From a virus, in the IMG/VR virus record IMGVR_UViG_3300042882_000881, positions 1-64,000 of that record: a stretch of 64,000 nt of DNA; one strand, written 5' to 3'. Within the stretch, counting starts at the first letter, position 1. Each line of letters opens with the position of its first letter. The notes under the pieces are model-generated. The model had not been told where the DNA came from. It saw nothing but the letters and a program-made list of their open reading frames with translations, and did not search any database. The translations under genes and the position numbers were made by a program. Below, piece after piece: positions 27,548 through 52,671 of this stretch.

Positions 27548-27557
27548 GAAAGAATAT

Positions 27558-28916: not shown

Positions 28917-28918
28917 AA

Positions 28919-29170: not shown

Positions 29171-29310
29171 ATGTGGAAAATGCATTAGCTTTAATTGATC
29201 GTGTTTGCGGAATGGCTCTATTAAATAGAGATGATCATATAAGAGTTTCTCAAGCTTTAGAATTTATTAGACAATCTCTAATAAATAACCAAGTATCAAA
29301 TGACAATTGA
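29167..29310 (+). CDS. Small hypothetical protein (47 aa, MNVENALALID...), not in the ORF track
   Basis: AGGAG RBS, ATGA overlap, frame read by hand. Confidence 0.6.
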   Translation: MNVENALALIDRVCGMALLNRDDHIRVSQALEFIRQSLINNQVSNDN

Positions 29311-29794
29311 CTTTAGAATACTACAACAATTATATAATTCTAATATAAATTTATTATTGGATAAAGATGGTCTAACTACAGAGTGTACTCTTGCTTATGG
29401 AGTTAGTGATAAAGAGATTTGTCCAAATTGTATCTTTGATACTTTAACAAACAAGTCTTCTAATAAATATAAAACTGGTGGTCCAATAGAATTTAATGTT
29501 GGCGTAGTTTGTCCATACTGTTATGGTTTAGGATATGTTGGTAAAGAAAAAACTTTTGATAATATTTATTTAGCTGTATTATGGGATTCTAAAAATTGGA
29601 TAAATTTTAATACAGATATAAAAAATACAGATGACTATATACAAACTCTATCCTCAGTTGATTTATTGAATAAGATACAGTCAGCAAGTTATATAATTGT
29701 CAAAGATAAGAAATTTGAAAGACAAGGATCATGCAATTATGGTGGTCTTGGAGATAATAAATATATTATCACAACTTGGAGACAAACAGCATGA
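29300..29794 (+). CDS. Putative head-closure protein with Zn-binding CxxC pairs
   Basis: CPNC and CPYCYGLG; position in the neck module. Confidence 0.55.
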   Translation: MTIDFRILQQLYNSNINLLLDKDGLTTECTLAYGVSDKEICPNCIFDTLTNKSSNKYKTGGPIEFNVGVVCPYCYGLGYVGKEKTFDNIYLAVLWDSKNWINFNTDIKNTDDYIQTLSSVDLLNKIQSASYIIVKDKKFERQGSCNYGGLGDNKYIITTWRQTA

Positions 29795-30438
29795 GACTAC
29801 AGCTTAAATTATTAGATAGCACTAAAGATATTGAAAGTAAAATATTAAAAGCGTTACTATCAGAAGTTTCTGATAGCATGAAAAAATATGCAAAAAATAT
29901 ATCCAAAGAAATAAAAGAATTAGTAGTATCAGCATTACAGAATAGTCCAGAATATCAATCATTAGTCTCAGGTTCGCTACAAGCAGAGTTTGGTATTCCA
30001 GATCCAGAAAATAGGCTCGTTGAATTATTAAATATATGGGCAAGAAATGCTTCTGTAACATTTGCGACCCCTACCATAACTGGTTCTAGAATCAAGGGGT
30101 ATTTTAGATTAGAGATGATTAAAGCTGATTTATCAGATGTTCTAGGTAGTGATCTTGCTATGGTAATTGATAGTAATAGTGGGAAAAGCTTACATTGGTT
30201 AGAGTGGTTAAGCTTAGCAGGAGATAAGACAATAATTAAAGACTATGATATAGTTTATGGTCCAAATAAAAGATCTCGTACAGGTCTTGCTATCATGAGA
30301 TCTCAGTCTGGAGCAAGATGGAAAGTTCCATCAGAATTTGCCGGTAATATAGGAGACAACTGGATAACACGATCAATAGACTCTATATCTGATTCTATAG
30401 ATATTGCAATACAATCTGGATTTAATAACTTTATATGA
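29791..30438 (+). CDS. Putative neck/tail-completion protein
   Basis: Position; WLEWL and DNWITR; ATGA overlap supports a start at 29791. Confidence 0.5.
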   Translation: MRLQLKLLDSTKDIESKILKALLSEVSDSMKKYAKNISKEIKELVVSALQNSPEYQSLVSGSLQAEFGIPDPENRLVELLNIWARNASVTFATPTITGSRIKGYFRLEMIKADLSDVLGSDLAMVIDSNSGKSLHWLEWLSLAGDKTIIKDYDIVYGPNKRSRTGLAIMRSQSGARWKVPSEFAGNIGDNWITRSIDSISDSIDIAIQSGFNNFI

Positions 30439-31379
30439 CATGCATAGTAAACAACAGATTCCAACACGTTGGATCATATACCGATCAACTAATATTAAAC
30501 TCATTAGAAGTTAATTTAAAACTATTTTTAGATCATTCATTTCTCACTATAGGATCATGGTCTGATGTATTATTAGATCAAGAAAATCTTATAACCTCTC
30601 CACTATGCAAACTAGAGATGGATGAAGATCCTTCATTTAAAAGAGGTCGAGTTTGGATAGCTGCCAGAAAAGATTGGATTTATGATTCTACATTAGTATT
30701 TGATGAAAGATCACCAATAGCTATTGATCAAATTATGGTGAATAATGTTGCGGTTACTAGTGGATATTATATTGACTATATTAATGGTAGAATAATATTT
30801 GATAATCCAAAACCCCCAACCTCATCTGTTAAAGTTTCTTTCTCGTATAGTAATATACAAACTCACAGATCATCAGATTGTAACTGGTGGAAAATTATAG
30901 AATCAGGCATAATTGAACCAAAAGATATGAAATCCACAGGAATTGGTCAATGGACAATTGGACCTTATCATAAAGTTCAAATGCCATGTATTGTTATTGA
31001 TGCTGTTCCAAGAGCACGAAATTTACCATATGAATTAGGATCAAAGTCTTTAAAAATTGAACAAGATGTATTATTCAATGTGTTAGCAGAAAATAAAAAT
31101 GACAGAAATCAATTACTAGATATAATTAGATTACAACATGATAATACCATATGGCTATTTGATACAAATAAAGCCGCTCAAGATAATAAGCTTCCGTTAA
31201 CCTATAATGGATCAATTAATCCTGAGGGATTGACCTATTTAGATCTAATTAATACTTATAAATGGGCTAAAACATATATAAAAAATGTAACATTATCAGA
31301 AATATCATCTATTAATGGTATTTATGAGGGTGTTGCACGAGCTACTTTCGAAATAATTTTTGATAGTTTTATAGATTAG
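30435..31379 (+). CDS. Putative tail terminator protein
   Basis: MPCIVID..PYELG..DVLFNVLAE..DRNQL pattern; immediately before the tail tube gene. Confidence 0.55.
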   Translation: MTCIVNNRFQHVGSYTDQLILNSLEVNLKLFLDHSFLTIGSWSDVLLDQENLITSPLCKLEMDEDPSFKRGRVWIAARKDWIYDSTLVFDERSPIAIDQIMVNNVAVTSGYYIDYINGRIIFDNPKPPTSSVKVSFSYSNIQTHRSSDCNWWKIIESGIIEPKDMKSTGIGQWTIGPYHKVQMPCIVIDAVPRARNLPYELGSKSLKIEQDVLFNVLAENKNDRNQLLDIIRLQHDNTIWLFDTNKAAQDNKLPLTYNGSINPEGLTYLDLINTYKWAKTYIKNVTLSEISSINGIYEGVARATFEIIFDSFID

Positions 31380-31385
31380 GTGTAT
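31380..31385 (+). promoter_or_regulatory. GTGTAT putative late promoter
   Basis: Intergenic, 43 nt before the tail tube ATG. Confidence 0.6.
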
Positions 31386-31422
31386 TAAAAAATATTCACA
31401 AGATTCTTAATGGAGTTATACA

Positions 31423-32583
31423 ATGCCAAATAATCGTATATATTATGCAATTCAACAAGTTTCAATGGGCCCATCTGGCGCTTCTGCACTTCACGGCCTA
31501 CAGAGCGTTGGTGTTACCAGTAACTTTAATCTAGAACAAATCTTCGAACTAGGTCAACTAGCAATTTACGAAAATTCAGAAACAACTCCAGAAGTTGAAG
31601 TTACTTTACAAAAAGTTCTTGATGGATATCCCTTAATTTATACATCAGCAACAGAATTAGGCTGCGCAGAAGGCAGCGGCTATGTAGCATCTGGTGCTGA
31701 CCTTGCTGGTCGCCAAAAGGCTAAAACAGATGTTTATTTAACAATTTGGCCAGACGATAAGCTTAGTGCTGGTTATAATGGTGCTAGCGCCCTTGCTGGA
31801 GGTTGTGCCGAATTAGTTTGCTCAGGTATGTATGTAAGCTCTGTTTCTTATACCTTCCCAGTAGAAGGCACATTTACCGAAGACGTTACTCTCGTTGGTA
31901 ATCAAAAGAGATGGAGATCAGCATCAATAAGTGGTAAGTTTACAGATAATGCTGATGCTCCAGCAGCAGTAACTGGTGTTGGTCGTAGACAAGATTTAAA
32001 CATGGGATCCAGCATTTTCCCAGATGATATTCCTGGTGTATCAGCTCAAGTATTCGCTGGTGGCTCATGTTCTGATCCAAGAATTTGTGGAACTTACGTT
32101 TCTGGTGGTGTTAACGCTCGCGTAACTGGCGAACAAGTTCAACAGGGCTTGTCCGCTGGTCACTCTGTACACTTTTCAAATATAACCGTTTCTTGTGACT
32201 TTGGTGGTCGTGAACCAATCTATGAACTAGGTTCATTAAAGCCATATTACAGATATGTTTCTTTCCCAATCGAAGTAACATCAGAATTTGAAATTACTGG
32301 TGTTCAAGGTGACTGCGTTGTTGTTGACGATGATCTTGGTGATGATGGCTCATACTGCCCAACAGAAACATCCAATCTAAGGAATCAAAAGATTGCGATT
32401 GTAACTTGCGAAGGCACAAGTATTGATCTTGGTCACAAGAATAAACTTCAATCAGTAAATTATACTGGTGGAGATACTGGTGGCGGTAATGTTACCATAA
32501 CATATAGCTATAGTAACTTTAATGATCTAGTTGTTGTTCATAATAGCTCAGATTCATTCCCAGGTCTTGGCGAAGGATCCTGA
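31423..32583 (+). CDS. Major tail tube protein
   Basis: GLQSVG..EQIFELG and a second EPIYELG motif (two-domain tube); high-expression codon bias; position. Confidence 0.7.
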   Translation: MPNNRIYYAIQQVSMGPSGASALHGLQSVGVTSNFNLEQIFELGQLAIYENSETTPEVEVTLQKVLDGYPLIYTSATELGCAEGSGYVASGADLAGRQKAKTDVYLTIWPDDKLSAGYNGASALAGGCAELVCSGMYVSSVSYTFPVEGTFTEDVTLVGNQKRWRSASISGKFTDNADAPAAVTGVGRRQDLNMGSSIFPDDIPGVSAQVFAGGSCSDPRICGTYVSGGVNARVTGEQVQQGLSAGHSVHFSNITVSCDFGGREPIYELGSLKPYYRYVSFPIEVTSEFEITGVQGDCVVVDDDLGDDGSYCPTETSNLRNQKIAIVTCEGTSIDLGHKNKLQSVNYTGGDTGGGNVTITYSYSNFNDLVVVHNSSDSFPGLGEGS

Positions 32584-32609
32584 TAAATAAAAACTAGGAC
32601 GATTGTGAT

Positions 32610-33659
32610 GTGGATAAGGACAAATTAATATTATCAAGAATTATTTCTGGGTCTTTAATCTTTAGATTTAAGGATCAATTACTATACTTGGTATATCCGT
32701 CATTATCTATAAAATATGAATCAGAGATATATTATGAGGACTTATATGATAAATATAAATTCTCTGATTGGATAGTAGAATCTGACATATTAAATATACT
32801 CAAGGAAAATAGATTGTGGTCGGATATGAATGAAAAGGAAATGTCTAATCTACAGAAGCAAATTGATCAAGTTAAAATAGAGTTATTTAAAAGCTTCTAT
32901 GCTACTAAAAAACAAAAAAGCATAAGAGCCAAATTAAATAATCTTAAAGAAACTTATCAGAAATATTATAATGTTCGTCATAGTCTTGACCATCTTACCG
33001 TAGAAGGTTTTTGTGAAAAATACAAAAATGACTATCTACTAATTCATAGTATATTTAAAAAACAAGATGGTGAATTAATTAGATTCTTTGATAATTTAAA
33101 TCCAGATAGTAAATTATTAGAAGATGTTACATATGAAATAGGCCAACATTCTATAGATATTCCAGTGTTTAGAAGAATAGCAAGAGGAGATCTATGGAGA
33201 ACATATTGGTCAGCCAATAAAAATTTCTTGTTTGAAAAAGCATCATCAGAATGGACAGATGAACAACGAACACTAGTAGTTTTCAGCAAGATGTATGACT
33301 CTGCTCATGAAAGTACTGAGCCTCCACCAGATCCAGTATTCGATGATGATGATATGTTTGATGGTTGGATATTATTGCAGAATGAAAATGCTAATAAAGA
33401 AAAACAAAAGAAAACTGAAGATAAAGCTCTTGGATCAAAAATGTCAAAGGCTCAGGAAGTATTTTTCATGGCTAATTCATCAAATGATGCTTCAGATATA
33501 CATGATATGAATTCTAGTGTTACTAAAGCTATTATTAATGAAAGAAATACATCCATATTGAAACATAAAGATATTGATGCCACTAAATTACCAGATACTC
33601 AAAGAGAAATTGCTAGCATGAATCAAGAAGCATTTAAAAATAAACTAAGGAATAAATAA
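32610..33659 (+). CDS. Hypothetical protein, probable tail assembly chaperone
   Basis: Between the tube and TMP genes; YDSAHES.EPP..DDDDMFDGW. Confidence 0.5.
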   Translation: MDKDKLILSRIISGSLIFRFKDQLLYLVYPSLSIKYESEIYYEDLYDKYKFSDWIVESDILNILKENRLWSDMNEKEMSNLQKQIDQVKIELFKSFYATKKQKSIRAKLNNLKETYQKYYNVRHSLDHLTVEGFCEKYKNDYLLIHSIFKKQDGELIRFFDNLNPDSKLLEDVTYEIGQHSIDIPVFRRIARGDLWRTYWSANKNFLFEKASSEWTDEQRTLVVFSKMYDSAHESTEPPPDPVFDDDDMFDGWILLQNENANKEKQKKTEDKALGSKMSKAQEVFFMANSSNDASDIHDMNSSVTKAIINERNTSILKHKDIDATKLPDTQREIASMNQEAFKNKLRNK

Positions 33660-33952
33660 TGAATAATAAAAATATAGAATATATACTAAGAAAAAAAATT
33701 GAAACAACAATGATTGGAGCATTAGCTAGATTTGAAGAAGGATTCGGAGATCTCTGGGGATATAATACAGATAATCCAAGTCAAGAGCAAATAAGAAATA
33801 AAATGATATGGGAAAGAATACGCAATGAAATATTAGATCATGGTAATAATCAATTGCGTAAAGGAATGTCAGAATTACAAGGAAACAAAGATTTTGACAA
33901 AGTAAAGTATTCGTACTATTATAAGTTTAATAACAAGGAGAATAATCAATGA
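33659..33952 (+). CDS. Hypothetical protein
   Basis: Translationally coupled ORF. Confidence 0.65.
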   Translation: MNNKNIEYILRKKIETTMIGALARFEEGFGDLWGYNTDNPSQEQIRNKMIWERIRNEILDHGNNQLRKGMSELQGNKDFDKVKYSYYYKFNNKENNQ

Positions 33953-34800
33953 AGTCTTTAGATTTTACATACTCAGTCAATGGTGTTGATAAGAAATTTT
34001 CAGTAGTATTACCATCCTCTGATGATCAAAAAGAGGCCAATAGGGTATACAATACCGCGTTTAGTGATGCTATAAAAGCCAAGGCTTTGGTCAGAGCAAA
34101 ATTAGACGATGTTCTTGTTGAACAAGGATTATGGGATGATAAAAAGCAAAAAGATTTCAATGATCTGCAAAATTCTATTCTTGAGGGAGAGAGAAGATTA
34201 GCTAAGGGTGGTATACAACTAACAGAAGCTAAAAAGGTGGCTCTACAAATGAAAAAAGATAGAGCAGACTTAAGAGATTTAATTTCGGTCAAAACCAATC
34301 TAGATACTCATACCGCAGAAGGTCAAGCTGATAATGCTAGATTTAATTATTTAGTATCATCCTGTTTGGTGTATTCTGATACTAAAGAGACTTACTTTAA
34401 AGGATATCAGGACTATTTAAGTAGGGCTGCTGAACCTGTTTCTATATTGGCTGCTCAGCATTTGGCTTCTATGTTGTATGGCTTAGACAGCGACTATGAA
34501 GAAAAATTGCCAGAGAATAAGTTTTTGATGAAATATAAATTTGTTAATGATAAATTAAGATTAATTAATAAAGATAATCAACTAATTGATGAAGAAGGCA
34601 GGCTAGTAGATGAAACCGGAAGATTCATTAATGACAAAGGAGAATTCGTTGACAAAGAAGGAAACGTTGTTAATGAAAAAGGAGATTATCTCTTCGAATT
34701 TCAGCCATTCTTGGATGAAAGCGGAAAGCCTATTGTCGAATCTGCTCCAATTAAAGAGTCAGAACCAGAAGAACTATCCAAAGAAGAATCGCCAACTTGA
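33949..34800 (+). CDS. Probable tail assembly chaperone with 7-aa repeats
   Basis: AGGAG RBS; directly upstream of the TMP; (I/V)(D/N)xxGxx repeats. Confidence 0.55.
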   Translation: MKSLDFTYSVNGVDKKFSVVLPSSDDQKEANRVYNTAFSDAIKAKALVRAKLDDVLVEQGLWDDKKQKDFNDLQNSILEGERRLAKGGIQLTEAKKVALQMKKDRADLRDLISVKTNLDTHTAEGQADNARFNYLVSSCLVYSDTKETYFKGYQDYLSRAAEPVSILAAQHLASMLYGLDSDYEEKLPENKFLMKYKFVNDKLRLINKDNQLIDEEGRLVDETGRFINDKGEFVDKEGNVVNEKGDYLFEFQPFLDESGKPIVESAPIKESEPEELSKEESPT

Positions 34801-34823
34801 TATCAATATACTAACTTTTAATC

Positions 34824-34865
34824 AAAAGATCCCATCTTCTACATTTAGAGGGTGGGATTTTTTTT
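34824..34865 (+). terminator. Intrinsic terminator-like hairpin just before the TMP RBS
   Basis: ATCCCATCTTCTA-CATT-TAGAGGGTGGGAT followed by a T-run; GGAGA follows immediately. Confidence 0.8.
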
Positions 34866-34876
34866 GGAGATAATTA

Positions 34877-37800
34877 ATGGCCAAAACCTTTAATCTTACT
34901 GCACAAATAAACTTACAAGGTCCAGCTAATATAAAGCCTATTGTAGCACAAATTAGGCGAGAGCTAGGAACCATAAATACTGCTATTGATATTAAGTTTG
35001 ATACTAAAGCAGCCAAAGGTGTTGACAATTTATCTCAAAAAATACAAAGTTTAAATAGCATATTAATTGAAACTACTAAAAATAGTCAAATATTAGCTTC
35101 TTCATTAAATAATCTTGGAACATCTATTAAAGGATTAGGATCTATTGGTAAGGTTAATAGTTCAGTTAGTAAAACCGCACAAAGTATAACTTCCACAGCA
35201 AAAGCTGTTAAAACAGCAAGTTCAGAAATGGAAGAGTTTGGTAAACAGTCTGCTCTTGCTGTACGAAGATTTGCAGCATTTAGCGTTGTTAGTGCTGGAG
35301 TATTTTCATTAGTTAATGCTGTTAGAAATGGAACTAAGGCTTTTATTGAATTTGATAAACAGCTTATTAGATTACAACAAGTTACTGGTGGTGGTAGCGT
35401 TGGTATCAAATCATTGAGAGACGAAATTATAAACTTAGCAACCACTCTTGGTGTTAGTAGTGAGTCATTAACAGAAGTTGCTGTTACTCTTGCTCAGGCC
35501 GGTTTGAGTGCCAAGGAAACTCAACAAGCACTTGCTGCTTTAGCTAAGACAGAATTGGCTCCGTCATTCGATAATATGACAGAAACCACAGAAGGTGCTA
35601 TTGCTGCAATGAGACAGTTTTCTATAGAAACAAAAGATTTAGAAAAAGTTTTAGGCTCTATTAATGCTGTTGCAGCAGCATTCGCTGTAGAATCTAGCGA
35701 TATCATTACCGCTATTCAAAGGGCTGGTGGAGCATTTGCTGCTTCTAGCAAGGGTGTTAGTGAAGGGGCTGATGCATTAAATGAATTTATTGCTATCTTT
35801 ACTAGCGTTAGAGCAACAACTCGTGAAAGCGCAGAAACTATTGCTACTGGCTTAAGAACAATTTTTACTCGTATTCAAAGAGGAAGCACAATTGACTTCC
35901 TAAGAGAATTTAATGTTGAATTAACTGATAGCGAAGGAAAATTCGTTGGTCCATATGAAGGAGTTAAAAGATTAAGTGAAGTATTAAAAACTTTAGATCC
36001 TAGAGATTTAAGATTTTCTCAAATTGTTGAAGAGCTTGGTGGATTCCGACAAATTGGTAAGGTTATTCCTTTAATTCAACAATTCGGAGAAGCACAAAAA
36101 GCATTAGGTGTTGCTCAAAGAGGACAAGGAAGCTTAACAGATGCTCAAGTTAAAGCTCAACAATCATTAGCTAATCAAATTGCTAAGGTTAGAGAACAAT
36201 TTCTAGCATTATCATATGCTGTAGGTGAAAGTCAAACATTCAAAAGCTTATTTAAAATAGTTATTGGTTTAACTAGTGGACTAATTAAATTAGCTAGCGT
36301 TTTTAAACCATTATTACCACTGATAGCAACACTTGGTATTATTCAAGGTGGTAAAGCATTAACTAAATTCGGTAGCGGTTTTATTAGTGGTATTAAAAAA
36401 GGGGGAGGAGCAGGAGGAGTTGGTACAAATCTGGGAGAAAGTCTTAGTGGCGTTAATAGCGAAAAAACTGCCATAGCAGCAGAAAAAACAGCATCCGCAT
36501 TAACAGATAATACTAAATCAATAACAACATTAACAGCAGCTGTTGAGTCTTTAACTCAAGCTATTAACTCTAGAGGCCCAGCCACACTTAATAATGGTGG
36601 AAAAGTAATGGCTTTTGCTAGAGGTGGAAGTGTTCCTGGATCTGGTAATAGAGATACTGTTCCAGCAATGCTTATGCCAGGAGAATTCGTTATACGAAAG
36701 AAAGCTGTTGAAAAACTTGGTGCTGATAATTTACACAAGATGAATAAGTATGCTTATGGTGGCACAGTTAAAGATTTAAGCAAATATTATAAATCTATTC
36801 CCACCAAAAAGGGTTATGAAAATCTTGAGAATCAACCAATAAGAGACAATTCTATATTTAAAGAAGTTAAACCAACTGATTTAACAACAGATCAGATAGA
36901 AGAGTGGAGAGGCAGCGATATTCCAAGATGGAAAAAATTTGAATATGTATTATCTAAAAACTATAATCTAGGACCACCAGCAGCTGAACAGTTTGCTTTA
37001 TTAGATTTTCCACAATCTAGATCAGAAGCAAAATTTATGAAGAAGGGCGATACATATGATGATTATGATTCTATTAAAGGTAATAATGAAGCAACCATAG
37101 CGGCTAAAAATTTTCTTTATGAAAATAGTTTACTATCAGGAAAAGCAAATCTTAAGCCAGACCAACTGCTGACCAGAGCAATAGCCAACAAACCAGTTAC
37201 TACATACTGGGCAGATCCAACAAAATTTGCCGCACAAGGTTTGAATAAGGGTGGATTAATTCAAAAATTCCTACTTGGTGGAACAGTAGAAGAAACCTCT
37301 AAGTTAGAGAATATGACTGTTCAAGATTCTGTCATAGCATGGCTAAAAGAACTTGGAGGAATTCAAGGAGTAAAAGATATTAGTGGCGTTGCTGGTAATG
37401 ATAGATCATTAGATAGCATTTTAAGATTAAATAATATCAAATCTGGAGACAATACTAAATTAAGTAAAGCTATTGAAGCCGTAGACAGAGCATTAGCTAA
37501 TAAAACTGCTAAAAAAGCTAGAGAAGCACAATCTATTAATAAGGCACTTAAGCTTGGTATTGTTGGATTAGAACCATTAGGATTTAGTCAAGATAGAGTA
37601 TTTGATACTGGATTTGGTAAAGCTGCTTTATTACTCAGAGGATTACCTAATAGTCCTGAGTATACTGATTTAGTTGGTAAAACCAGAGCCGGCGTTGCTA
37701 AATTATCAACAGATCTTGCTACTGGATTTCAAACTGCTACTGCTTTTGGAGGAAGTCAACCAATAGCATTAGATTTTGATGAAACATTAGTTAAAGGAGC

Positions 37801-40800
37801 AGATATTTTTGGTCCAGATGGAAAACCAGATATTCCAGCATATGACGATCTTAACAGAGTTAAAGAGGCTCTTCAGAATGGACAACCAACAGAACTAGCA
37901 CAAAAATTAAAATCTATTATGGATTTTGATCCATCATTTATAGATAGAATAAGAGTATTAACAGCCAGACCACAAGAGAATGCTAATCTTTTAGCTGAAA
38001 AACTAAACTCTATCGGATTACCAATTCCAGCATCTAAAATACAAGGAACACGAGGTGGTGGATCAACAAAGGCTTCTAAACTTGGTGTTGCAGAAAAATT
38101 AATAGATGATAATTATGATAATATTTTAGCTGCAATTGCTCAAGGTAAAACAGCTAAACAATATGCTGAATTAAGAGAAATACAAGATGCTGAACAAAGA
38201 GCTGGAGGTATTGCTAATGCAGAAGGAGCAGTACTACAATTAGCCTTGTCTCAACTGGGCGCTCAAGGAGGAACTATAAAAGAAGCTGCTATAGACTTTG
38301 AAAGAGGTCTAGGTTTACAAGCCTCACAAATATTTGGTCTTCCTCCAGATATTCCAACAGAAGTTAAAAGAACTCTTAGTAGCGCTGCTATTGGGCGAGC
38401 AGAAGATGAATTTACTAGATATTTTAAAGAAAACTACGGCCCATTTCCTAAAGGATCTGATGTTTATGGTTTTAATAAAAGTACTGGCTTACCAATAAGT
38501 AAATTTGCTGACGGTGGAGAAGTTTATAGTGCAAAACAATTGGTATCATTAGCCAAGTATAGAACAGGTAACGGCCCTGGAGGTGGAACTAATAGTGAAT
38601 TTATAAATAGATATTTAGAAGATAATGACTCTTTCATGGAATATCTTAAAACTTTCCATGCTGATCCACCCAAAGCGTATGACGCTACAAAGAATGCCGC
38701 AAAAGATTTATTGGAAATGTTTAGTAGCCAAGAATCAATGAGTGGATCAAAACGTTCTGGTAAACTATATTCTACAGTTGCTGGAGGGAAACTAAAGACT
38801 CTTTTAACTCAAATTGGTAATCCATTAAATTCTAATAAAGATATTTCTGATGCTATTGGAAAAACTTTTAATTTAAATGGCTCATTATTATCAACCAGTG
38901 AATCACCAGACACTGCTAGTATGTTCCAGCCAGAAAATGGCTCTAGTGCAATGTTAAGTATTATAAGAAATAAAAATATCCCATCTATTGATGTTGATAA
39001 AACAGTATTTGATACTGCTACAGAAGACGATGTTATAAAAGCTCTATCAAAATACATGGATCCTGTTTCTGGCAAAAGTGGAGCAGATTATCTAAGTAGA
39101 AGTCGCTCAGGCACAAGGTTAGAGAGAGAATTCATTCTACCACCATCTTCAAAATTTAGAATAGATGATATTGATAGAATATATACTAAGGACCAAGAAG
39201 ATAAATTATTAGGTGGAAATATTCGTCATATAGAAGGAATGAAAGTTCAGCAGTTTAAAGATGGAGGAATGGCATTTGGTAAAGAAAATGAATTTGAAAA
39301 AATCAGACAAAAAATATTAAATCAATATCCAGATATTAATTTTAGAATTTCCAGACGAAAGAATGGTTTTGGATACAATATACTAGGCGGACTAAAACAA
39401 GAAGGTAGTAATATTGGTAATTATGCAGAATTTAAGCAAGCTGGTAATCTTTCTAAATTACAAGAAGTTGCTGATAATATGGCGTCCTCTCTGCTATATG
39501 AATATGGTCCAAATATAGATCCGTCTCTTCTCAAAAAGATGCAAAATAAAAGAAAATTTGCAAACGGAGGGTCTGCACAGGATACCGTACCAGCATTATT
39601 GACCCCTGGTGAATTTGTTATCAATAAAAAAGCTGCACAAAAAATTGGATATAGTAAATTACATCAGATGAATAAAGCTGATAAAATACAAGGATATAAT
39701 AAGGGTGGTTCTGTAGGATTAGTTCAAAAATTTGCTGATGGTGGAGACGTTAGGGAAACTCAAGATTGGGCAGATGCATTGCGAGCAATTGGAAATAGTG
39801 CTCTACCAGACTTAGATGATGCTATAGAAGATGTTGCTAAACAATTTGAAGCTCTTGGTAAATTAGATGTGTCTAAAGCTCTTAGGGAAGCTATAGATCC
39901 AAGTCTTAACAGAGATCAACAATCGCGAGCCATAGGAGGAAGTGCAAGAAATACTGCTATATATGAAAATAATTCAGTAAAAGACTCGGCAGGAAATATA
40001 ACAAATGTTAATCCTGGACTAGATGCTCTTGCTGCTAGTATAGAACGTAATATTGAAGCTCAAAAGATTTTTACAATTGAAGCAGAAAGAGCCGGTATAA
40101 GTTTGAAGGATTTTGAGTCCAAAGTTAAATCTCAAAATTTAGAAAAAGCACTATCTGGCATAAATCAAAGACAAGACTCTAGAGGTTTATTAAGAAGAGA
40201 TTTTATCAAATCTAAGCTAACTGGCCTAGACACTCCTGATAAACTATCTGATGCCAGAGACACATTAATTTCTAGCTTATCTGAACTGTTAAAACCAGAT
40301 GAAGTTGAAAAAGCTATTGATGCTATAATTAGTGGAGCAGAAGCTGGTCAAAGTTTAGAAGATGTTGCTAAAACTTCTGACGAAGTTAAGAAAGCTCTTG
40401 ATGCTTCTATAGATAGAACAGAAGCTCTTAGCAAAGCAGAACAAGATTTAATTGATAATTTTGGAGAATTAACTAATAGTGTTAGAATAACAGCAGAAGA
40501 ATTAGCGGCTTTTGAATATAAAAAATCAGGTAGAGCACAAGAAGAATTTGGGATGTTGGGTGGCTTTAATCCTAGTGGAGCATTAGCGTTTAAAAATAGT
40601 AAAACCGGAGGAGGACTATTATCAGCCGCTCAAAACTTCCAACAAACCGCTGGATTAGGCAAATTGCCATTTATAGGGAAAAATATTGGAGTATTTACTA
40701 AAGCTTTAGAAGGTCTTCCTGGTCCAATTGGTAATGCTATTAAATCTATAGGAGGATTACCAGGGGCATTGGCTGCTGTTACATCTATTATTGGTAGTGA

Positions 40801-43800
40801 AGTTATACCACAACTATTAAAAGCTACTAATATGGGAACTAGTGAAATTGGTGCTGGAGTAGGAGGAGCATTAGCTGAAGGAGGTAGCAGAGCAGTTAGC
40901 TTAGGAACAATAGGAAATCAATTAGCAGGACCAATAGGTGGACTAATAGGGTTAGTAACAGGAGCATTATCTGGTGCCATAGATGGTTTTGTTAAAGCAT
41001 TTCAAACTAAAAAATTAGAAAATAGTATAGCTCAATTAGATAAAAGTATAGAACTAGTAGATAAATCATTTGAAAATTTAGCTAAAAAAGATAATTTACA
41101 AAATATTACAGCTGCACAAAAGTCTTTAGGTGGAATTTCCAGTAGTTTTTCTGATTTGAAAACTCAATCAGAAATTAGTCCAATGGAAAGAGCTGCTTCT
41201 GGTGCTTCTACAAGTGCTCTAGTGGCTGGAGGCGCCGCTATTACAGCATTAGTTGCAGTATTAGCTGGTATTCCTACTTTTGGATTCGGAACAGCAGCAG
41301 TATTAGGAACAGCAGCAGTTGTTGGTGGTGTTGCTGGTGGAGTTTATGGCTCAACAATGAGAGCTCCATCTGAATTAGATGATGAAGCACTTCAATCATC
41401 ATTAAGAGCTGCTGAAAAATATATTGAAGGATTGAATAGACTAGCAGAAAGAGATATTAAATTAAAGAGTCTTTCCCAGTTAGAAGAAGTGACTAGTGAG
41501 ATAGATCAAATTAATAAAGATCTTGCTGGTGGTAAAATTGGATCAGCTGATGCTGAAGCATTAAAAAAGAATAAATTTATTGAACTTGGTGCAAAAAGTG
41601 CTCAAATTGAAAATGCTCAAAGAAGCGCTCTTGTTAATAGTGGAATAAATATCAGAGCAGATCAGCCATTAGCTCAACAAATAAATGGTAATGATCAGGC
41701 TATGAAAATTGCGGCGGCAGCAGCAGAACAAGCAGCATACATTGCTGGTATGGATAAGCTTAAAAGGCAATATGGTGATAATAACGCTATGCTTAGGAAA
41801 GAAAGTGCAGACAGGCAAAAGGTCATTGCTCTTGGAAATGAAGAATTAGGTATGCAATCTTATCAAATGGCATCAACAGAAAGATTGATTAGATTAACAA
41901 AAGATATGGCAAAAGAAACAGAAGCTTTAGTAGAAGCTTATAATAGAGCATTAGCTGGTATAGGTCGCTTTAAGAATGAATTAGAAAACTTTGTATTAAA
42001 AACAGAACAAAATGCTTCATTCTTTACTGGTGAAGGTGGAATGGGTCAAACTGATAGAACTCAAGAGCAAATGCTCAGAAATATGACAGCTTATACTGCT
42101 CAAGAATTAGCTCCAGTATTAGATAATGTAACATCGTTGGCAGGAGGTGGTGAACAAGGTAAAAAATTAACTGATAGTATTAAAGCTAGTAAAATTATGC
42201 AAGATATTTTACCAGGAATATTAAGAAATGCTGACGCTAGAAATGTTGGTGATGTAACAGCAAAAGTAGATCAAGCATTAGCTGGACAAGGCATAGGAAA
42301 GACTGTAAGAACAACTCTTGTGGATGAACTTAGAGAATACCTAAAAAAAGAAACTGGCAACAGAAGCGGAGATAGCTTTCAGGAAGTATTAGCCAATTTC
42401 CCTGCACTAGCAGACGCAATAAATACTGCTAAAAAAGCACAAGAAGTTGGAATAGCCATATTAGAAGCTCAAAATGATGCTCTTGATCAGGTTAATAAAC
42501 AACTAGATCAATATAACAAATATTTAAAACAATCATTACAATGGAGCATCAAGGCTGATCAGATACGTTTACAAGGAGCTATTGATCTTGATAGGGCTCT
42601 TGGTCGCACAGTATCACTAGATAGATTAAATGCTCCTATTGAGAACGAAATTAAAGCTTTAAGCGGCATTAATTCATCAGATCCTGTTGCTATAGCCAAT
42701 CAAATCAGAGCAGATCAAGCCAGAGCAGAAGCTATAAATGGTACTAATGGTCAGAGAGGACTAATGGATCAAGCTAAAGCAAGAGGCGAAGCTGGAAAAG
42801 ATGAAGTTGCTAAATTAGCTAAAGAACAAGCTGATCTTGCTAGAGCTTCAAGTAATGCTTACGAAGCTCTTGAAAAACTTGCTACTAGTGGAGATATTGC
42901 ATCTAATGTGTTGAGTAAAATTGAAGAAGAAAGACAATTAGGTAAAAACTTTATAGATTTTGCTAGGAAAGTATCAACACAAACTGCTGAAGAAGCTATT
43001 CGTATGAATAGATCTTTTGCGGCATTCGAACAAACAATTGCTGGTAATATGAATTTTGGTAATAGAGAAAATAGACAATTAGCTTATGAAGGAATGGATA
43101 CTCTACTTCCATTACTAAGAGGATCAACAGAAGGCAATCAAATCATAGCAAGATTTACTAAAAATATGCTTGCTAACCAAGGTGTCGATCTTAATAAGAA
43201 ATTTGGTAATACTGGAAGTACTATTGGAGAATTAATAGATGCTGGTACAACTGGTATTGATCCTGGCACACAAAAATTAATTGATCTATATACCAAAGCT
43301 AAAGATGCCCAAGAACAAGCAGCAAGAGAATTAGCTAATCTTAATGGATCAGCAGCAAATAAGTATCTTGAAAGTACAGCAACAATACTAAATAATCTTT
43401 ATAATAGTTTACCAGCAATCATAGCTAGCGCTCTATTAGATCCTCAAAAAGCGGCTAATGGTCAAGTTCAAGCTCCAGCACTACAAAATAATGCTCAATT
43501 ACCAAATGTTCCTCCTGATCCTAACAAGCCAATTCCAGTTGTTGTGCAAAATGCTCAACAAGCAGGAGGATTAGCTAATGGAGCACCAGTAGTTGGTCAA
43601 AATATTGCTGGGCCAGCCAATGCTCAAGCTTTTAATGCTATGGCCACAACAGTTCCAAAATTAGATCTAACAATGTTAAATACTATTAGAAGTATCGATA
43701 CATTAAATGTTGGAATAGTGAATCTTGGCACAACAGTTAAAGATTTAGCAGATAAATTAGCTGATTCTTCAGCAATGGTTGATGCTATGACAATTTTTGA

Positions 43801-44092
43801 TAAGTCTACCATAGTCTTTGGGTCAAAGGTTGATATTTTTGATAAAGCCACGCTATCTTTTGGATCTTATGTTGACAAATTATCTACTACCGCAGGATTA
43901 CTGAGCGATGCTAAGATTACTATGGGTGGTAATTATACTGTGGATGTTAAGGTTAGTGGAGCAGCAGCATTCCAAGCTATTGAAGAAGGCACACAAAAAC
44001 TAATAGATAAAGAAATTGGATTGGCTATGAGAAAATTAGTGAATAAGATTAAAAAAGTAACCGGCATGGATCTAGACTTAGATAGGAGATGA
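34877..44092 (+). CDS. Tape measure protein (3071 aa) with an internal cassette of enzyme-like cargo domains
   Basis: TP901-type TMP core (FDKQL..LAQAG..A..IATGLRTIFTRI), Ala/Gly-rich hydrophobic helices and coiled coils; central insert with HAD and ART motifs. Confidence 0.92.
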   Translation: MAKTFNLTAQINLQGPANIKPIVAQIRRELGTINTAIDIKFDTKAAKGVDNLSQKIQSLNSILIETTKNSQILASSLNNLGTSIKGLGSIGKVNSSVSKTAQSITSTAKAVKTASSEMEEFGKQSALAVRRFAAFSVVSAGVFSLVNAVRNGTKAFIEFDKQLIRLQQVTGGGSVGIKSLRDEIINLATTLGVSSESLTEVAVTLAQAGLSAKETQQALAALAKTELAPSFDNMTETTEGAIAAMRQFSIETKDLEKVLGSINAVAAAFAVESSDIITAIQRAGGAFAASSKGVSEGADALNEFIAIFTSVRATTRESAETIATGLRTIFTRIQRGSTIDFLREFNVELTDSEGKFVGPYEGVKRLSEVLKTLDPRDLRFSQIVEELGGFRQIGKVIPLIQQFGEAQKALGVAQRGQGSLTDAQVKAQQSLANQIAKVREQFLALSYAVGESQTFKSLFKIVIGLTSGLIKLASVFKPLLPLIATLGIIQGGKALTKFGSGFISGIKKGGGAGGVGTNLGESLSGVNSEKTAIAAEKTASALTDNTKSITTLTAAVESLTQAINSRGPATLNNGGKVMAFARGGSVPGSGNRDTVPAMLMPGEFVIRKKAVEKLGADNLHKMNKYAYGGTVKDLSKYYKSIPTKKGYENLENQPIRDNSIFKEVKPTDLTTDQIEEWRGSDIPRWKKFEYVLSKNYNLGPPAAEQFALLDFPQSRSEAKFMKKGDTYDDYDSIKGNNEATIAAKNFLYENSLLSGKANLKPDQLLTRAIANKPVTTYWADPTKFAAQGLNKGGLIQKFLLGGTVEETSKLENMTVQDSVIAWLKELGGIQGVKDISGVAGNDRSLDSILRLNNIKSGDNTKLSKAIEAVDRALANKTAKKAREAQSINKALKLGIVGLEPLGFSQDRVFDTGFGKAALLLRGLPNSPEYTDLVGKTRAGVAKLSTDLATGFQTATAFGGSQPIALDFDETLVKGADIFGPDGKPDIPAYDDLNRVKEALQNGQPTELAQKLKSIMDFDPSFIDRIRVLTARPQENANLLAEKLNSIGLPIPASKIQGTRGGGSTKASKLGVAEKLIDDNYDNILAAIAQGKTAKQYAELREIQDAEQRAGGIANAEGAVLQLALSQLGAQGGTIKEAAIDFERGLGLQASQIFGLPPDIPTEVKRTLSSAAIGRAEDEFTRYFKENYGPFPKGSDVYGFNKSTGLPISKFADGGEVYSAKQLVSLAKYRTGNGPGGGTNSEFINRYLEDNDSFMEYLKTFHADPPKAYDATKNAAKDLLEMFSSQESMSGSKRSGKLYSTVAGGKLKTLLTQIGNPLNSNKDISDAIGKTFNLNGSLLSTSESPDTASMFQPENGSSAMLSIIRNKNIPSIDVDKTVFDTATEDDVIKALSKYMDPVSGKSGADYLSRSRSGTRLEREFILPPSSKFRIDDIDRIYTKDQEDKLLGGNIRHIEGMKVQQFKDGGMAFGKENEFEKIRQKILNQYPDINFRISRRKNGFGYNILGGLKQEGSNIGNYAEFKQAGNLSKLQEVADNMASSLLYEYGPNIDPSLLKKMQNKRKFANGGSAQDTVPALLTPGEFVINKKAAQKIGYSKLHQMNKADKIQGYNKGGSVGLVQKFADGGDVRETQDWADALRAIGNSALPDLDDAIEDVAKQFEALGKLDVSKALREAIDPSLNRDQQSRAIGGSARNTAIYENNSVKDSAGNITNVNPGLDALAASIERNIEAQKIFTIEAERAGISLKDFESKVKSQNLEKALSGINQRQDSRGLLRRDFIKSKLTGLDTPDKLSDARDTLISSLSELLKPDEVEKAIDAIISGAEAGQSLEDVAKTSDEVKKALDASIDRTEALSKAEQDLIDNFGELTNSVRITAEELAAFEYKKSGRAQEEFGMLGGFNPSGALAFKNSKTGGGLLSAAQNFQQTAGLGKLPFIGKNIGVFTKALEGLPGPIGNAIKSIGGLPGALAAVTSIIGSEVIPQLLKATNMGTSEIGAGVGGALAEGGSRAVSLGTIGNQLAGPIGGLIGLVTGALSGAIDGFVKAFQTKKLENSIAQLDKSIELVDKSFENLAKKDNLQNITAAQKSLGGISSSFSDLKTQSEISPMERAASGASTSALVAGGAAITALVAVLAGIPTFGFGTAAVLGTAAVVGGVAGGVYGSTMRAPSELDDEALQSSLRAAEKYIEGLNRLAERDIKLKSLSQLEEVTSEIDQINKDLAGGKIGSADAEALKKNKFIELGAKSAQIENAQRSALVNSGINIRADQPLAQQINGNDQAMKIAAAAAEQAAYIAGMDKLKRQYGDNNAMLRKESADRQKVIALGNEELGMQSYQMASTERLIRLTKDMAKETEALVEAYNRALAGIGRFKNELENFVLKTEQNASFFTGEGGMGQTDRTQEQMLRNMTAYTAQELAPVLDNVTSLAGGGEQGKKLTDSIKASKIMQDILPGILRNADARNVGDVTAKVDQALAGQGIGKTVRTTLVDELREYLKKETGNRSGDSFQEVLANFPALADAINTAKKAQEVGIAILEAQNDALDQVNKQLDQYNKYLKQSLQWSIKADQIRLQGAIDLDRALGRTVSLDRLNAPIENEIKALSGINSSDPVAIANQIRADQARAEAINGTNGQRGLMDQAKARGEAGKDEVAKLAKEQADLARASSNAYEALEKLATSGDIASNVLSKIEEERQLGKNFIDFARKVSTQTAEEAIRMNRSFAAFEQTIAGNMNFGNRENRQLAYEGMDTLLPLLRGSTEGNQIIARFTKNMLANQGVDLNKKFGNTGSTIGELIDAGTTGIDPGTQKLIDLYTKAKDAQEQAARELANLNGSAANKYLESTATILNNLYNSLPAIIASALLDPQKAANGQVQAPALQNNAQLPNVPPDPNKPIPVVVQNAQQAGGLANGAPVVGQNIAGPANAQAFNAMATTVPKLDLTMLNTIRSIDTLNVGIVNLGTTVKDLADKLADSSAMVDAMTIFDKSTIVFGSKVDIFDKATLSFGSYVDKLSTTAGLLSDAKITMGGNYTVDVKVSGAAAFQAIEEGTQKLIDKEIGLAMRKLVNKIKKVTGMDLDLDRR
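37760..38160 (+). other. HAD-superfamily phosphatase domain inside the TMP
   Basis: IALDFDETLV (motif I), VLTARP (II), K (III) and LIDD (IV). Confidence 0.8.
38519..39250 (+). other. ADP-ribosyltransferase domain (VIP2/C3-like, R-S-E class) inside the TMP
   Basis: Y..FINRYL, KLYST, GKTF..LLSTS and EREFILPPSSKFRI. Confidence 0.75.
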
Positions 44093-45930
44093 TAATGACA
44101 GATTTAACTACTGATAATACAGCAGCCAGAATGTTCTATGTAAAAATGACAGAATCTGCTGGAGAAACAGATAATGAACTTGTTCCATCTCCCAATATTA
44201 ATTTAAGTATAGAAACTTTCTATGCTAATGAGAGCATAATAGGATATACTTATAATATCACCTTAACAGGATATGCGGCCTCAAAACAAGATAGAAATCA
44301 GGATCATGTTCCATCTATCGGCTATGTTGTTGGTAGTATTGCTAAAATACAAAACATATTTGATAATGTTGGAAATGGAGGTAAACTAATAGTTACAACA
44401 CCAGGAACTGGTGCTCCAATGATGATATTTAAAGGAGGTAAAATAAAAAGTATAAATTTTGCCCCTAGTAATAATCAATGGGTTAAATATAGTGAATATA
44501 CTATAGAATTAGAATTTAATGATGTTGAATTATTTGGATGTAATCATGAGACAGTAAAAGGATGCGGTTCAACATTATTTGATGCCGGTAGCAACTCGGA
44601 ATCAACAGGATTGCTCACTGTTCAATCTCAACTTGTTGATCATGGAGCAAATGCTCCTATTGGTTATAAAATCAAAAGCTTTAGTGATAAATTTACTATG
44701 GATTTACAAGACGAAATTTATGACTGGGCTAGAATTGATGATAGTTTAGAATTAAATAATAAAAGATATAATGTTCAGTATACTATAAATGCTGTTGGTC
44801 AACATTATTGGGATGAAACTGGAAATTTATTTCCAGCATGGAAACAAGCTAAAGCATTTTGTCAAGATAGATTAGTTAAACAAATTAATGGTTTGTATAC
44901 TAATATGGCTATGCACTATGCTGGTCCAGAAGAAGAATTTTGTGGAAGCTCTGAAGATTTAACAGAAATTCATAAAATTGAAAGTCCTAGCATACATACT
45001 ACTATTGGGGCGTACAATATATTTGATGAAAAAATTACATTCGGACCTTCAGAATCTGATGGAAGTTTTGAAATCAATTATAGTTCGATCTTAAAACGAA
45101 ATGTTAATACTTGTGTTACACACTCTGATTGTACTCATACATTAAATATAACAAGAGGTGGAACTAAAGAATTTGGTAAACCACAAGCAAGAAGCGCAAC
45201 ACTATCAGGTACAATACAAGGATTATTACGATATACCAATGAGGGTTCAATTATTTGGCCAAACGCCGAAGGATTCAGAATACCAGATAGTCCAAATTCT
45301 ATGGTATTTTTACCACCAAAGGCTGATTTTAAATATAAGTGGAAAGTGGCCAAAGAATTATTAGATAGATTTTTAAATGAATGTTCAGGAGAAATAACAT
45401 GTTCAGCATTAAAAGATATTGTGGTTAAATGTTTGGCACCAAGCTGTTTTCATATTTATCCTGGCCAAGATTCTGTTGATGAATTTAATCCAGCAGATTT
45501 ACTTCCTACTAGCTTCACTATTACACATAACTATGGTCAAGGCTCCATAGATTATTCTGTTGAATTTAGTCCAGAGTCTAGATCAAGGTGTAATGTAACT
45601 ATAAGTACCGAAGAACCAGTTCCAATTACGGCAGAGTTTACTATTCCAGGAAAAGGTATTTATTATCAACCTTTAGGAGGATGTACTCCTAAAAAATGGA
45701 CAATTAATGCTGAAGGATTAGTAGGAACTCCAATGGGATGTAATATGGGTTCTGGAGGAATATCAATTTGTAGTGATCCAATAATAGGATGTGAAGAATA
45801 TATGCCAGATGATAGTCAAGGAACTTATTTACTAATTTCTAAACAGAAAACATATAATCCAATTGATGGATCTTTTAGCTATAATGCTACATGGGTATGT
45901 ACTAATTGCGGTGGATACGGAGGCTGCTGA
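44089..45930 (+). CDS. Tail protein (distal-tail/hub-like), Cys-rich
   Basis: First gene after the TMP; beta-rich; AGGAG RBS (start may be 44095). Confidence 0.6.
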   Translation: MIMTDLTTDNTAARMFYVKMTESAGETDNELVPSPNINLSIETFYANESIIGYTYNITLTGYAASKQDRNQDHVPSIGYVVGSIAKIQNIFDNVGNGGKLIVTTPGTGAPMMIFKGGKIKSINFAPSNNQWVKYSEYTIELEFNDVELFGCNHETVKGCGSTLFDAGSNSESTGLLTVQSQLVDHGANAPIGYKIKSFSDKFTMDLQDEIYDWARIDDSLELNNKRYNVQYTINAVGQHYWDETGNLFPAWKQAKAFCQDRLVKQINGLYTNMAMHYAGPEEEFCGSSEDLTEIHKIESPSIHTTIGAYNIFDEKITFGPSESDGSFEINYSSILKRNVNTCVTHSDCTHTLNITRGGTKEFGKPQARSATLSGTIQGLLRYTNEGSIIWPNAEGFRIPDSPNSMVFLPPKADFKYKWKVAKELLDRFLNECSGEITCSALKDIVVKCLAPSCFHIYPGQDSVDEFNPADLLPTSFTITHNYGQGSIDYSVEFSPESRSRCNVTISTEEPVPITAEFTIPGKGIYYQPLGGCTPKKWTINAEGLVGTPMGCNMGSGGISICSDPIIGCEEYMPDDSQGTYLLISKQKTYNPIDGSFSYNATWVCTNCGGYGGC

Positions 45931-47609: not shown

Positions 47610-47619
47610 GGAGTAAATT

Positions 47620-52659: not shown

Positions 52660-52671
52660 TAGGACTATAAT

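What the first reader, a model, noticed from the sequence alone, without database searches (positions are those of the whole stretch)
36614..39709. Two copies of a DTVPAxLxPGEFVI..KA..K.G...LH.MN domain bracket the cargo cassette
Seen: copy 1 (36614-36763) is FARGG..DTVPAMLMPGEFVIRKKAVEKLGADNLHKMNK and copy 2 (39557-39709) is FANGG..DTVPALLTPGEFVINKKAAQKIGYSKLHQMNK. Protein sequence is conserved while many third codon positions differ, so selection acts on the protein. Each copy is itself bounded by GG motifs. A single copy of this motif is familiar in TMPs. Inference: it is the functional partner of the FxxGG motif (recognition, autoprocessing or dimerisation that loops out the cargo) and may also provide homology for cassette exchange.
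Basis: partly seen in the sequence, partly recalled or inferred. Interest (0 to 1): 0.72.

Follow-up and report, generated by a model that had tools for sequence, protein, structure and literature searches.

The report
Repeated joint module in tape measure
The two look-alike stretches are real: they are the first and second copies of a short, very widespread joint that tail-ruler (tape measure) proteins of phages use to fence off built-in enzyme blocks. Phage lambda has the same joint once, beside the place where its ruler is cut, but whether the joints are cut here is untested.

Summary
Observation confirmed. ORF 34877-44092 is a 3,071-aa TP901-family tape measure protein (TMP). It carries two ~50-aa modules (aa 580-629 and 1561-1611), each edged by [FY]xxGG boxes. 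They bracket about 930 aa of non-ruler sequence that further bare boxes split into four blocks; one block looks like a HAD phosphatase, one like an ADP-ribosyltransferase.

The copies are old, position-specific paralogs:
- Copy 1 is up to 92% identical to first modules of other TMPs, and copy 2 to second modules. The two copies are 61% identical to each other.
- The order A, B, C(n) recurs across hundreds of TMPs.

The module is very common (31,739 cluster representatives, up to 11 copies per protein), yet no Pfam model covers it. A profile of it matches lambda gpH aa 732-786 and mycobacteriophage Douge gp16. In lambda it lies just downstream of the unmapped gpH to gpH* cut and is unresolved in cryo-EM.

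Bare boxes are enriched only between modules, and relatives swap blocks at the boxes.

Not supported: pairing of the two copies (AlphaFold gave no confident pairing), LysM kinship, a JAB protease in this genome, and recombination between the two copies. Cleavage is plausible but untested.

This scan had already reported the same architecture on other DNA (40 notes in at least 36 genomes), with the same lambda link.

The parts
34877..44092 (+). Tape measure protein gene, 3,071 aa, no cysteine
   Evidence: ORF. PF10145 matches aa 181-386 (E 3e-21). PHROG TMP families match. TIGR01760 matches aa 145-475. Cysteine count is 0.
36239..36436 (+). Hydrophobic then glycine-rich stretch (aa 455-520) upstream of copy 1, as in lambda gpH
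   Evidence: Sequence. Type A modules in general have a hydrophobic stretch within 150 aa upstream: median KD19 maximum 1.50, against 0.64-0.65 for types B and C.
36587..36601 (+). Extra GG box (aa 571-575) ahead of copy 1
   Evidence: It lies inside the module profile envelope, aa 567-634.
36614..36763 (+). Junction module copy 1, type A (aa 580-629): box, DTVPA...GEFV core, two short helices, box
   Evidence: Profile E 1.4e-31. Type A score 106.5 against type B 61.6. Up to 92% identical to first modules of other TMPs.
36764..37240 (+). Cargo block 1 (aa 630-788), the block most often kept between the first and second modules in relatives
   Evidence: BLAST alignments to many relatives end at aa 781-811. 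No Pfam match. The nuclease-like reading comes only from another first-stage note and was not tested here.
37241..37282 (+). Double bare GG box (aa 789-802), a block junction
   Evidence: BLAST alignment starts at 784-802 and ends at 781-811 cluster here.
37283..38503 (+). Cargo block 2 (aa 803-1209), composite; its core aa 965-1064 is HAD-phosphatase-like with a DxDxT motif at aa 966
   Evidence: AF2 pLDDT is 80-94 for aa 965-1054 and 70 for aa 1055-1064. Foldseek top hits are all HAD phosphatases (prob 0.97, E 0.05). Motif. Relatives carry this block at other positions.
38504..38518 (+). Bare GG box (aa 1210-1214). In relatives L007 and L032 the matching box is the front edge of their next module (L007: its second module)
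38519..39253 (+). Cargo block 3 (aa 1215-1459), ADP-ribosyltransferase-like, absent from all relatives collected
   Evidence: Pfam ADPrib_exo_Tox E 0.07, below cut-off. Atlas nearest clusters are ART families at 0.91-0.92. STS and ExE-like motifs at aa 1339 and 1416. No BLAST alignment from any relative.
39254..39268 (+). Bare GG box (aa 1460-1464), a block junction
   Evidence: BLAST alignment starts at 1441-1484.
39269..39556 (+). Cargo block 4 (aa 1465-1560), which travels with the second module in several relatives
   Evidence: BLAST alignments covering aa 1457-1627 in P0035, P0044, P0064, L020, P0033 and P0097.
39557..39709 (+). Junction module copy 2, type B (aa 1561-1611)
   Evidence: Profile E 7.5e-28. 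Type B score 118.9 against type A 63.1. Up to 92% identical to second modules of other TMPs.
39731..39745 (+). Trailing GG box (aa 1619-1623), part of the type B consensus tail

Best explanation
The two stretches are the first (type A) and second (type B) copies of a conserved ~50-70-aa junction module of phage tape measure proteins. The module has four parts in order: an aromatic-x-x-G-G box, a D..PA.L..GEFV strand region, two short helices, and a second box. Lambda gpH carries the same module once (aa 732-786).

In this 3,071-aa TP901-family TMP, copy 1 follows the hydrophobic, glycine-rich stretch, as in lambda. Copy 2 precedes the long helical ruler. Between them lie four exchangeable non-ruler blocks separated by bare boxes. 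One block is HAD-phosphatase-like and one is ADP-ribosyltransferase-like.

Shown: the homology, the position-specific A/B identity, purifying selection, the link between modules and bare boxes, and block exchange at the boxes.

Inferred: the modules and boxes are flexible joints at which the TMP is matured by proteolysis during tail assembly, as lambda gpH is cut to gpH* plus gpHC near its own module. The enzyme blocks would then ride in the tail lumen as separate pieces and be ejected into the host ahead of the DNA.

My odds: about 0.9 that this is the lambda-type junction module marking block borders, and about 0.35-0.4 that the joints are actually cut.
For: Identity of the protein and the module:
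- TMP identity.
- A profile of 53 modules matches Douge gp16 twice (E 7e-12) and lambda gpH aa 732-786 (E 5.5e-5) among all PDB chain sequences. A local check gives a lambda domain E of 4e-9.

Lambda context:
- gpH is cut in its glycine-rich C-terminal region into gpH* and gpHC. Both the site and the catalyst are unknown.
- gpH aa ~690-817 is unresolved in cryo-EM (PMC12617516; PMC10721106).
- A cut after the box at aa 737 would give an 80.1-kDa fragment, against about 78 kDa on gels.

Spread and syntax of the family:
- 31,739 representatives at E<=1e-3, with up to 11 copies per protein.
- The order A, B, C(n) is conserved.
- Window copies are closest to same-position modules elsewhere, 92% against 61% to each other.

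Link between boxes, modules and block exchange:
- Bare boxes between modules: 482 against 194 expected. They are not enriched in the N- or C-terminal parts. Enrichment is 3.7-fold in aromatic-richer segments.
- The same cargo block ends in a box and is followed by different partners in different phages.
- Interior BLAST alignment ends lie within 25 aa of a box in 20 of 39 cases, against 20% expected.

A cytoplasm-acting enzyme block (ART-like) would act more easily if released.
Against: - No cleavage has been shown for any module-bearing TMP at a GG box. Lambda's site is known only to within about 40 residues.
- T5 pb2, whose cut is mapped after R1127 (PMC10038345), has no module. That cut lies four residues before a GG, with Arg where the aromatic residue would be.
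- No protease candidate was found here. Prok-JAB and NlpC/P60 models found nothing in the 114-kb record. Neighbouring tail genes have no significant Pfam or PHROG match.
- No relative has the TMP split into two genes at a module.
- AlphaFold2 gives no confident fold for the module, alone (pLDDT 59) or in context.
Confidence: 0.5

Rival explanations
1. Uncut structural joint. The module is a glycine-hinged element that folds only in the TMP trimer or hexamer, or on a partner such as the tail chaperone or the tube lumen. It keeps the chains in register wherever the coiled-coil ruler is interrupted by non-helical inserts. The whole chain stays intact and is ejected as one piece.
For: - The module sits at every switch between helical and aromatic-richer sequence.
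- The monomer model has low confidence, as expected for a fold that needs partners.
- It occurs in sipho- and myovirus TMP-like proteins and in tail lysins of very different hosts, for which no shared protease is known.
- Position-specific types A, B and C suggest distinct structural contexts.
Against: - In lambda the module region is not resolved with C3 or C6 symmetry in the two cryo-EM studies read here. A rigid symmetric clamp should be visible.
- This reading does not explain why bare boxes without the core mark the block borders.
Confidence: 0.3
2. Copy 1 and copy 2 of one chain bind each other or the bare boxes, closing the ruler helix and looping the cargo out.
For: - Types A and B nearly always occur together in that order.
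- They flank the insert.
Against: - AlphaFold2 of aa 565-1640 gave no confident structure joining the two modules.
- Many TMPs have only one module, among them lambda, S-SM2 and L026.
- A closed tail tube offers no room for a loop to leave the lumen (inference).
Confidence: 0.08
3. Cell-wall anchor. The module is a small LysM-like sugar-binding unit that fixes the ejected TMP and its enzymes to peptidoglycan.
For: - By eye the G-[DE]-x-hydrophobic ... L...N spacing recalls LysM (my own reading of the sequence).
- The module occurs next to lysozyme-type domains in some proteins.
Against: - No Pfam LysM hit for any of 53 modules at E<=10.
- hhalign against both LysM repeats of E. coli MltD gives probability below 1%.
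Confidence: 0.04
4. Recombination linker only. The conserved stretch persists because it mediates cassette exchange and has no role in the protein.
For: - The modules are islands of nucleotide similarity between otherwise diverged TMP genes.
- Two boxes in this gene share about 22 nt with two mismatches.
Against: - Conservation is at amino-acid level with synonymous divergence.
- It reaches lambda and actinophages, where no nucleotide similarity remains.
- The two copies in this gene share at most 10 identical nt in a row.
Confidence: 0.05

Closest known systems
Phage lambda tape measure gpH and its maturation to gpH* plus gpHC (PDB 8IYK; PMC12617516, PMC10721106)
   Same: - One module with both GG boxes at aa 732-786, detected by the profile.
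- It follows a hydrophobic, glycine-rich stretch, as copy 1 does here.
- The only known processing of gpH lies in this region.
   Different: - Lambda has one copy about 110 aa from the C-terminus and no inserted enzyme blocks.
- Here there are two copies, in the N-terminal half, around about 930 aa of inserts.
- Lambda belongs to another TMP core family (PF06791 and TIGR01541, against PF10145 and TIGR01760 here).
- The lambda cut site is unmapped, so cleavage at the box is my inference.
Mycobacteriophage TMPs with embedded motifs (TM4 gp17 Mt3, PMC1796659; Douge gp16, PDB 8ZDO, PMC13033339)
   Same: - Enzyme-like motifs are built into a TMP.
- Douge gp16 carries the module twice, at aa 956-1028 and 1412-1459.
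- Gordonia phage Herod carries three.
   Different: - The embedded motifs described there are cell-wall hydrolases, not ART- or HAD-like blocks.
- The module is not mentioned in the passages of those papers that I read.
- Only Douge aa 1658-1699 is modelled.
Phage T5 pb2 maturation (pb2* plus pb2C, cut after R1127; PMC10038345)
   Same: - A TMP is cut downstream of its hydrophobic stretch, freeing an enzyme-bearing piece that stays in the tail.
- A GG followed by a P-G turn lies four residues after the cut.
   Different: - pb2 has no module (best domain E 0.96).
- pb2 has no aromatic-x-x-G-G box at the cut.
T4 Alt, an ADP-ribosyltransferase carried in the virion and injected with the DNA (my own knowledge, not tested)
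   Same: A ready-made ART-type enzyme delivered at infection would be the functional analogue of cargo block 3.
   Different: Alt is a separate head-packaged protein, not part of a tail ruler.

Membership tests
TP901-family tape measure protein (PF10145 / TIGR01760) | Match to the family core above the curated cut-off | tested here: met
   PF10145: 76.5 bits against a cut-off of 33.2. TIGR01760: 95.5 bits against 28.8.
TP901-family tape measure protein (PF10145 / TIGR01760) | Position in a tail gene block, very long, mostly helical, with hydrophobic stretches | tested here: inconclusive
   The gene is long, helix-rich and has hydrophobic stretches. Its neighbours have no significant Pfam or PHROG match, so the tail block rests on gene order only.
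Lambda gpH-type junction module (gpH aa 732-786) | Significant profile match between the module family and gpH | tested here: met
   E 5.5e-5 against 177,635 PDB sequences. Domain E 4.4e-9. Types A and B score alike on lambda, 26.9 and 25.8 bits.
Lambda gpH-type junction module (gpH aa 732-786) | Box, GEF[VI] core, helices, second box, in that order | tested here: met
   Both window copies and lambda show all parts.
Lambda gpH-type junction module (gpH aa 732-786) | Placed just after a hydrophobic, glycine-rich stretch | tested here: met
   True for copy 1 (aa 455-520 upstream). Not true for copy 2.
Lambda gpH-type junction module (gpH aa 732-786) | Proteolytic cut beside the module during tail assembly | not testable with these tools
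   This needs virion protein chemistry. Lambda's own site is unmapped.
Ubiquitin-like GG processing by a JAB/MPN peptidase (as proposed for lambda K and I; my own knowledge) | A JAB or NlpC/P60 peptidase gene in the phage | tested here: not met
   PF14464 and PF00877 find nothing in the 114-kb record at E<=1. The record is about 82% complete and its proteins are very divergent.
LysM peptidoglycan-binding domain | Profile similarity to LysM | tested here: not met
   No Pfam hit in 53 modules. hhalign probability below 1%.
ADP-ribosyltransferase (cargo block 3) | Family model match and R / STS / ExE catalytic motifs | tested here: inconclusive
   PF03496: 12.9 bits, below the 23.4 cut-off. Atlas nearest clusters are ARTs at 0.91-0.92. 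STS and ExE-like motifs are present. The AF2 model of this block has low confidence.
HAD phosphatase (core of cargo block 2) | DxDxT nucleophile motif and Rossmann-like HAD fold | tested here: met
   Motif at aa 966. pLDDT is 80-94 for aa 965-1054. Top Foldseek hits are all HAD phosphatases, prob 0.97 but E only 0.05.

The most novel reading that the evidence does not exclude
The module with its GG boxes is a self-contained maturation signal, self-cutting or read by a still unknown tail-assembly protease. It would turn tape measure proteins into tail polyproteins. Ordinary TMPs such as lambda gpH would use it once, and giant TMPs up to eleven times, to load the tail lumen with free enzymes (here phosphatase-like and ADP-ribosyltransferase-like) that enter the host ahead of the DNA. 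This would also tell where and how lambda gpH is cut, which has been unknown since the 1970s.
Probability: 0.3. Interest if true: 0.85.

Novelty: new variant of a known kind. Interest (0 to 1): 0.6.

Why it matters
TMPs with built-in wall hydrolases are known, and so is the cutting of lambda and T5 TMPs. Three things are not described in the papers and family libraries I could search:
- One short module, present in tens of thousands of TMP clusters, marks these events.
- It comes in position-specific types.
- It fences swappable enzyme blocks.

If the joints are cut, many phages deliver a train of ready-made enzymes through the tail, a route for early host take-over or counter-defence. It would also make an old lambda question directly testable: map the gpH* end against the box at aa 733-737. 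If the joints are not cut, the module is still a candidate universal hinge that lets a ruler protein tolerate inserts, which would be useful for engineering phage-delivered proteins.

Tried and rejected
- LysM kinship: rejected. No Pfam hit; hhalign below 1%.
- JAB or NlpC/P60 protease in the phage: none found.
- Pfam and PHROG scans of 20 neighbouring genes for any protease: nothing significant.
- Module in T5 pb2 and in the TP901-1 TMP: absent. So the reported loss of an internal TP901-1 TMP segment (cited in PMC1796659) cannot be tied to this module.
- AlphaFold2 of the module alone (pLDDT 59) and of aa 565-1640 (mean pLDDT 50.5): no usable fold for the module and no confident pairing of the two copies. 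The models were therefore not used for fold searches of the module.
- Gene-level splits of TMPs at modules in 41 related loci: none.
- Literature searches for the motif or for GG-delimited TMP cargo: nothing relevant.
I could not get DNA or gene neighbours for the protein-only relatives, nor test short stand-alone module proteins such as P0090.
- Megablast of the gene against the phage collection: no match.
Full report
**What is there**

The window is part of a 114-kb uncultured virus record. Positions 34877-44092 hold one 3,071-aa ORF.
- It matches the TP901-type tape measure core: PF10145 at aa 181-386, TIGR01760 at aa 145-475, and several PHROG tape measure families.
- It has no cysteine.

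**The two copies compared**
- In the ungapped 32-aa core they share 22 residues and 70% of nucleotides.
- 16 of the 29 nucleotide differences are at third codon positions.
- Half of the identical residues use different codons.
- Each copy begins and ends with an aromatic-x-x-G-G box. Four more boxes, one of them with Leu in place of the aromatic residue, cut the 930 aa between the copies into four blocks.
- Eight such boxes in aa 565-1640 compare with 0.8 expected; no shuffle out of 5,000 reaches eight. The remaining 2,000 aa have none.

**The copies are old paralogs with fixed places**

A tblastn search of phage records, a word-indexed protein search and a scan of viral contigs all find the module in many tape measure proteins, mostly in several copies. 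Sorting 1,031 modules gives three types:
- Type A has a V-P-G-x-G turn before the core.
- Type B has a longer tail ending in two boxes.
- Type C has an F-x-P-K-G lead.

The types occur in the order A, B, then one or more C. Counts are AB 48, ABC 21, ABCC 15 and ABCCC 11.

The window protein is AB.
- Copy 1 is up to 92% identical to first modules elsewhere, and copy 2 up to 92% identical to second modules. The two copies are 61% identical to each other.
- Type A modules, and only these, have a strongly hydrophobic stretch within 150 aa upstream. Here it is aa 455-520, followed by a glycine run.

**How common the module is**

A profile of 53 modules (alignment A1) was searched against 1.84 billion cluster representatives.
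- It finds 31,739 proteins at E<=0.001 and 10,020 at E<=1e-10.
- The best hits are proteins of 2,300-7,900 aa with 4-11 matched stretches.
- Copy number rises with protein length, r = 0.74.

No Pfam model covers the module. In lambda only the broad NCBIfam model TIGR01541 runs over it.

**Link to solved and studied phages**

The same profile, searched against all PDB chain sequences, hits two proteins:
- the tape measure protein of mycobacteriophage Douge, twice;
- lambda gpH at aa 732-786.

In lambda the layout matches copy 1 here: hydrophobic stretch, glycine run, box at aa 733-737, core, helices, box at aa 778-782.

The papers state the following about lambda and Douge:
- gpH loses a C-terminal piece of about 14 kDa from its glycine-rich region after tail assembly.
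- Neither the exact site nor the catalyst is known.
- gpH aa ~690-817 is not resolved; only aa 818-849 are built (PMC12617516; PMC10721106).
- In Douge only aa 1658-1699 are built (PMC13033339).

A cut after G737 would leave 80.1 kDa, near the gel estimate of about 78 kDa. So the module has never been seen in a structure, and it sits beside the only processing event known for gpH.

**The boxes and block exchange**

In 151 multi-module proteins, bare boxes lie as follows:
- between modules: 482 against 194 expected;
- N-terminal parts: 18 against 30 expected;
- C-terminal parts: 4 against 7.6 expected;
- the excess is strongest (3.7-fold) in aromatic-richer, non-helical segments.

Composition profiles show modules at each switch between helix-like and aromatic-richer sequence.

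Relatives share blocks in other positions and orders. The block that ends at aa 1209 here ends in a box in every relative but is followed by different things:
- the ART-like block here;
- unrelated sequence in L003;
- directly the next module in L007 and L032.

Of 39 interior BLAST alignment ends, 20 lie within 25 aa of a box, against 20% expected. These ends are not independent, so the p-value of 1.6e-5 is only indicative.

At DNA level, only the N-terminal core and the two modules keep similarity to related genes. They can therefore serve as anchors for exchange between phages. The two copies in this gene share no more than 10 identical bases in a row, so they are poor substrates for deleting the insert. 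Two boxes share about 22 nt with two mismatches.

**The cargo**
- Block 2 has a DxDxT motif at aa 966. It is the only confidently folded part of the AlphaFold2 model, with pLDDT 80-94 for aa 965-1054. Its best structural matches are HAD phosphatases at weak E-values.
- Block 3 has a sub-threshold Pfam match to ADP-ribosyltransferase exoenzymes. Its nearest clusters in the protein atlas are ART families. It is absent from all relatives collected.
- Blocks 1 and 4 remain unassigned. Block 4 travels with type B modules in several relatives.

**Mechanism**

What is shown is a conserved, selected junction element at block borders. How it acts is inferred.

I favour joints that are matured by proteolysis, for three reasons:
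- Lambda is cut next to its single module.
- Bare boxes, not only full modules, mark the borders.
- Enzymes that act in the cytoplasm would work best if freed.

Against this:
- No cut at a box has been shown anywhere.
- T5, whose cut is mapped after R1127, lacks the module. That cut lies four residues before a GG, without the aromatic residue.
- No protease candidate was found here.

The main rival is an uncut hinge or register clamp that folds only in the oligomer. This fits the low monomer confidence and the very wide host range of the module.

**Relation to earlier notes of this scan**

I reached the lambda link and looked up earlier notes afterwards. They show the same architecture noted in at least 36 other genomes. 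Several follow-ups reach the same lambda link and the same verdict, 'cutting untested'.

One earlier follow-up calls the delimiter identical to the T5 cut site. My check of T5 does not bear this out for the box seen here.

- the A/B/C order;
- the hydrophobic stretch specific to type A;
- the nucleotide-island pattern;
- the negative tests for LysM, for a JAB peptidase and for pairing of the two copies.

Noticed in passing
window 38519-39253: The ADP-ribosyltransferase-like block inside the tape measure protein has no counterpart in any related TMP collected. It looks like a recent cassette gain between two GG boxes.
   Followed up: partly
window 37769-38068: HAD-phosphatase-like core with a DxDxT motif. 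It is the only part of aa 565-1640 that AlphaFold2 folds with confidence. Alignment ends at about aa 951-966 and 1096-1111 suggest that block 2 is itself made of three sub-blocks, each bordered by a plain GG.
   Followed up: partly
window 27017-34873 and 44089-58057: None of the 20 genes scanned around the tape measure gene has a significant Pfam match, and the 10 also scanned against PHROGs have no match. The tail of this phage is built from families not yet described.
   Followed up: partly
window 33949-34873: Two overlapping ORFs (33949-34800 and 34610-34873) end just before the tape measure gene, where a tail chaperone pair joined by a frameshift is usual. The frames differ by +1, not the usual -1.
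   Followed up: no
window 40853-41356: A second long hydrophobic, glycine-rich region (aa 1993-2160) lies in the ruler part, about 370 aa after copy 2. Type B modules often have such a stretch downstream (17% against 1-4% for types A and C).
   Followed up: partly
P0031, P0091, P0137 (relatives): Other module-bearing TMP-like proteins carry a Cro/C1-type helix-turn-helix domain at the C-terminus (P0031), a GH19 lysozyme-type domain after two tandem modules (P0091) and EF-hand pairs (P0137).
   Followed up: no
L028:9971-10210: A 795-aa TMP-like protein has two modules only about 45 aa apart. This would be a natural test case for modelling module-module contacts.
   Followed up: no
P0124 to P0136 (representatives): In the largest proteins (5,000-7,900 aa) the first modules are spaced fairly regularly, about 950-1,250 aa apart. 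This suggests large-scale unit duplication of module plus block.
   Followed up: no
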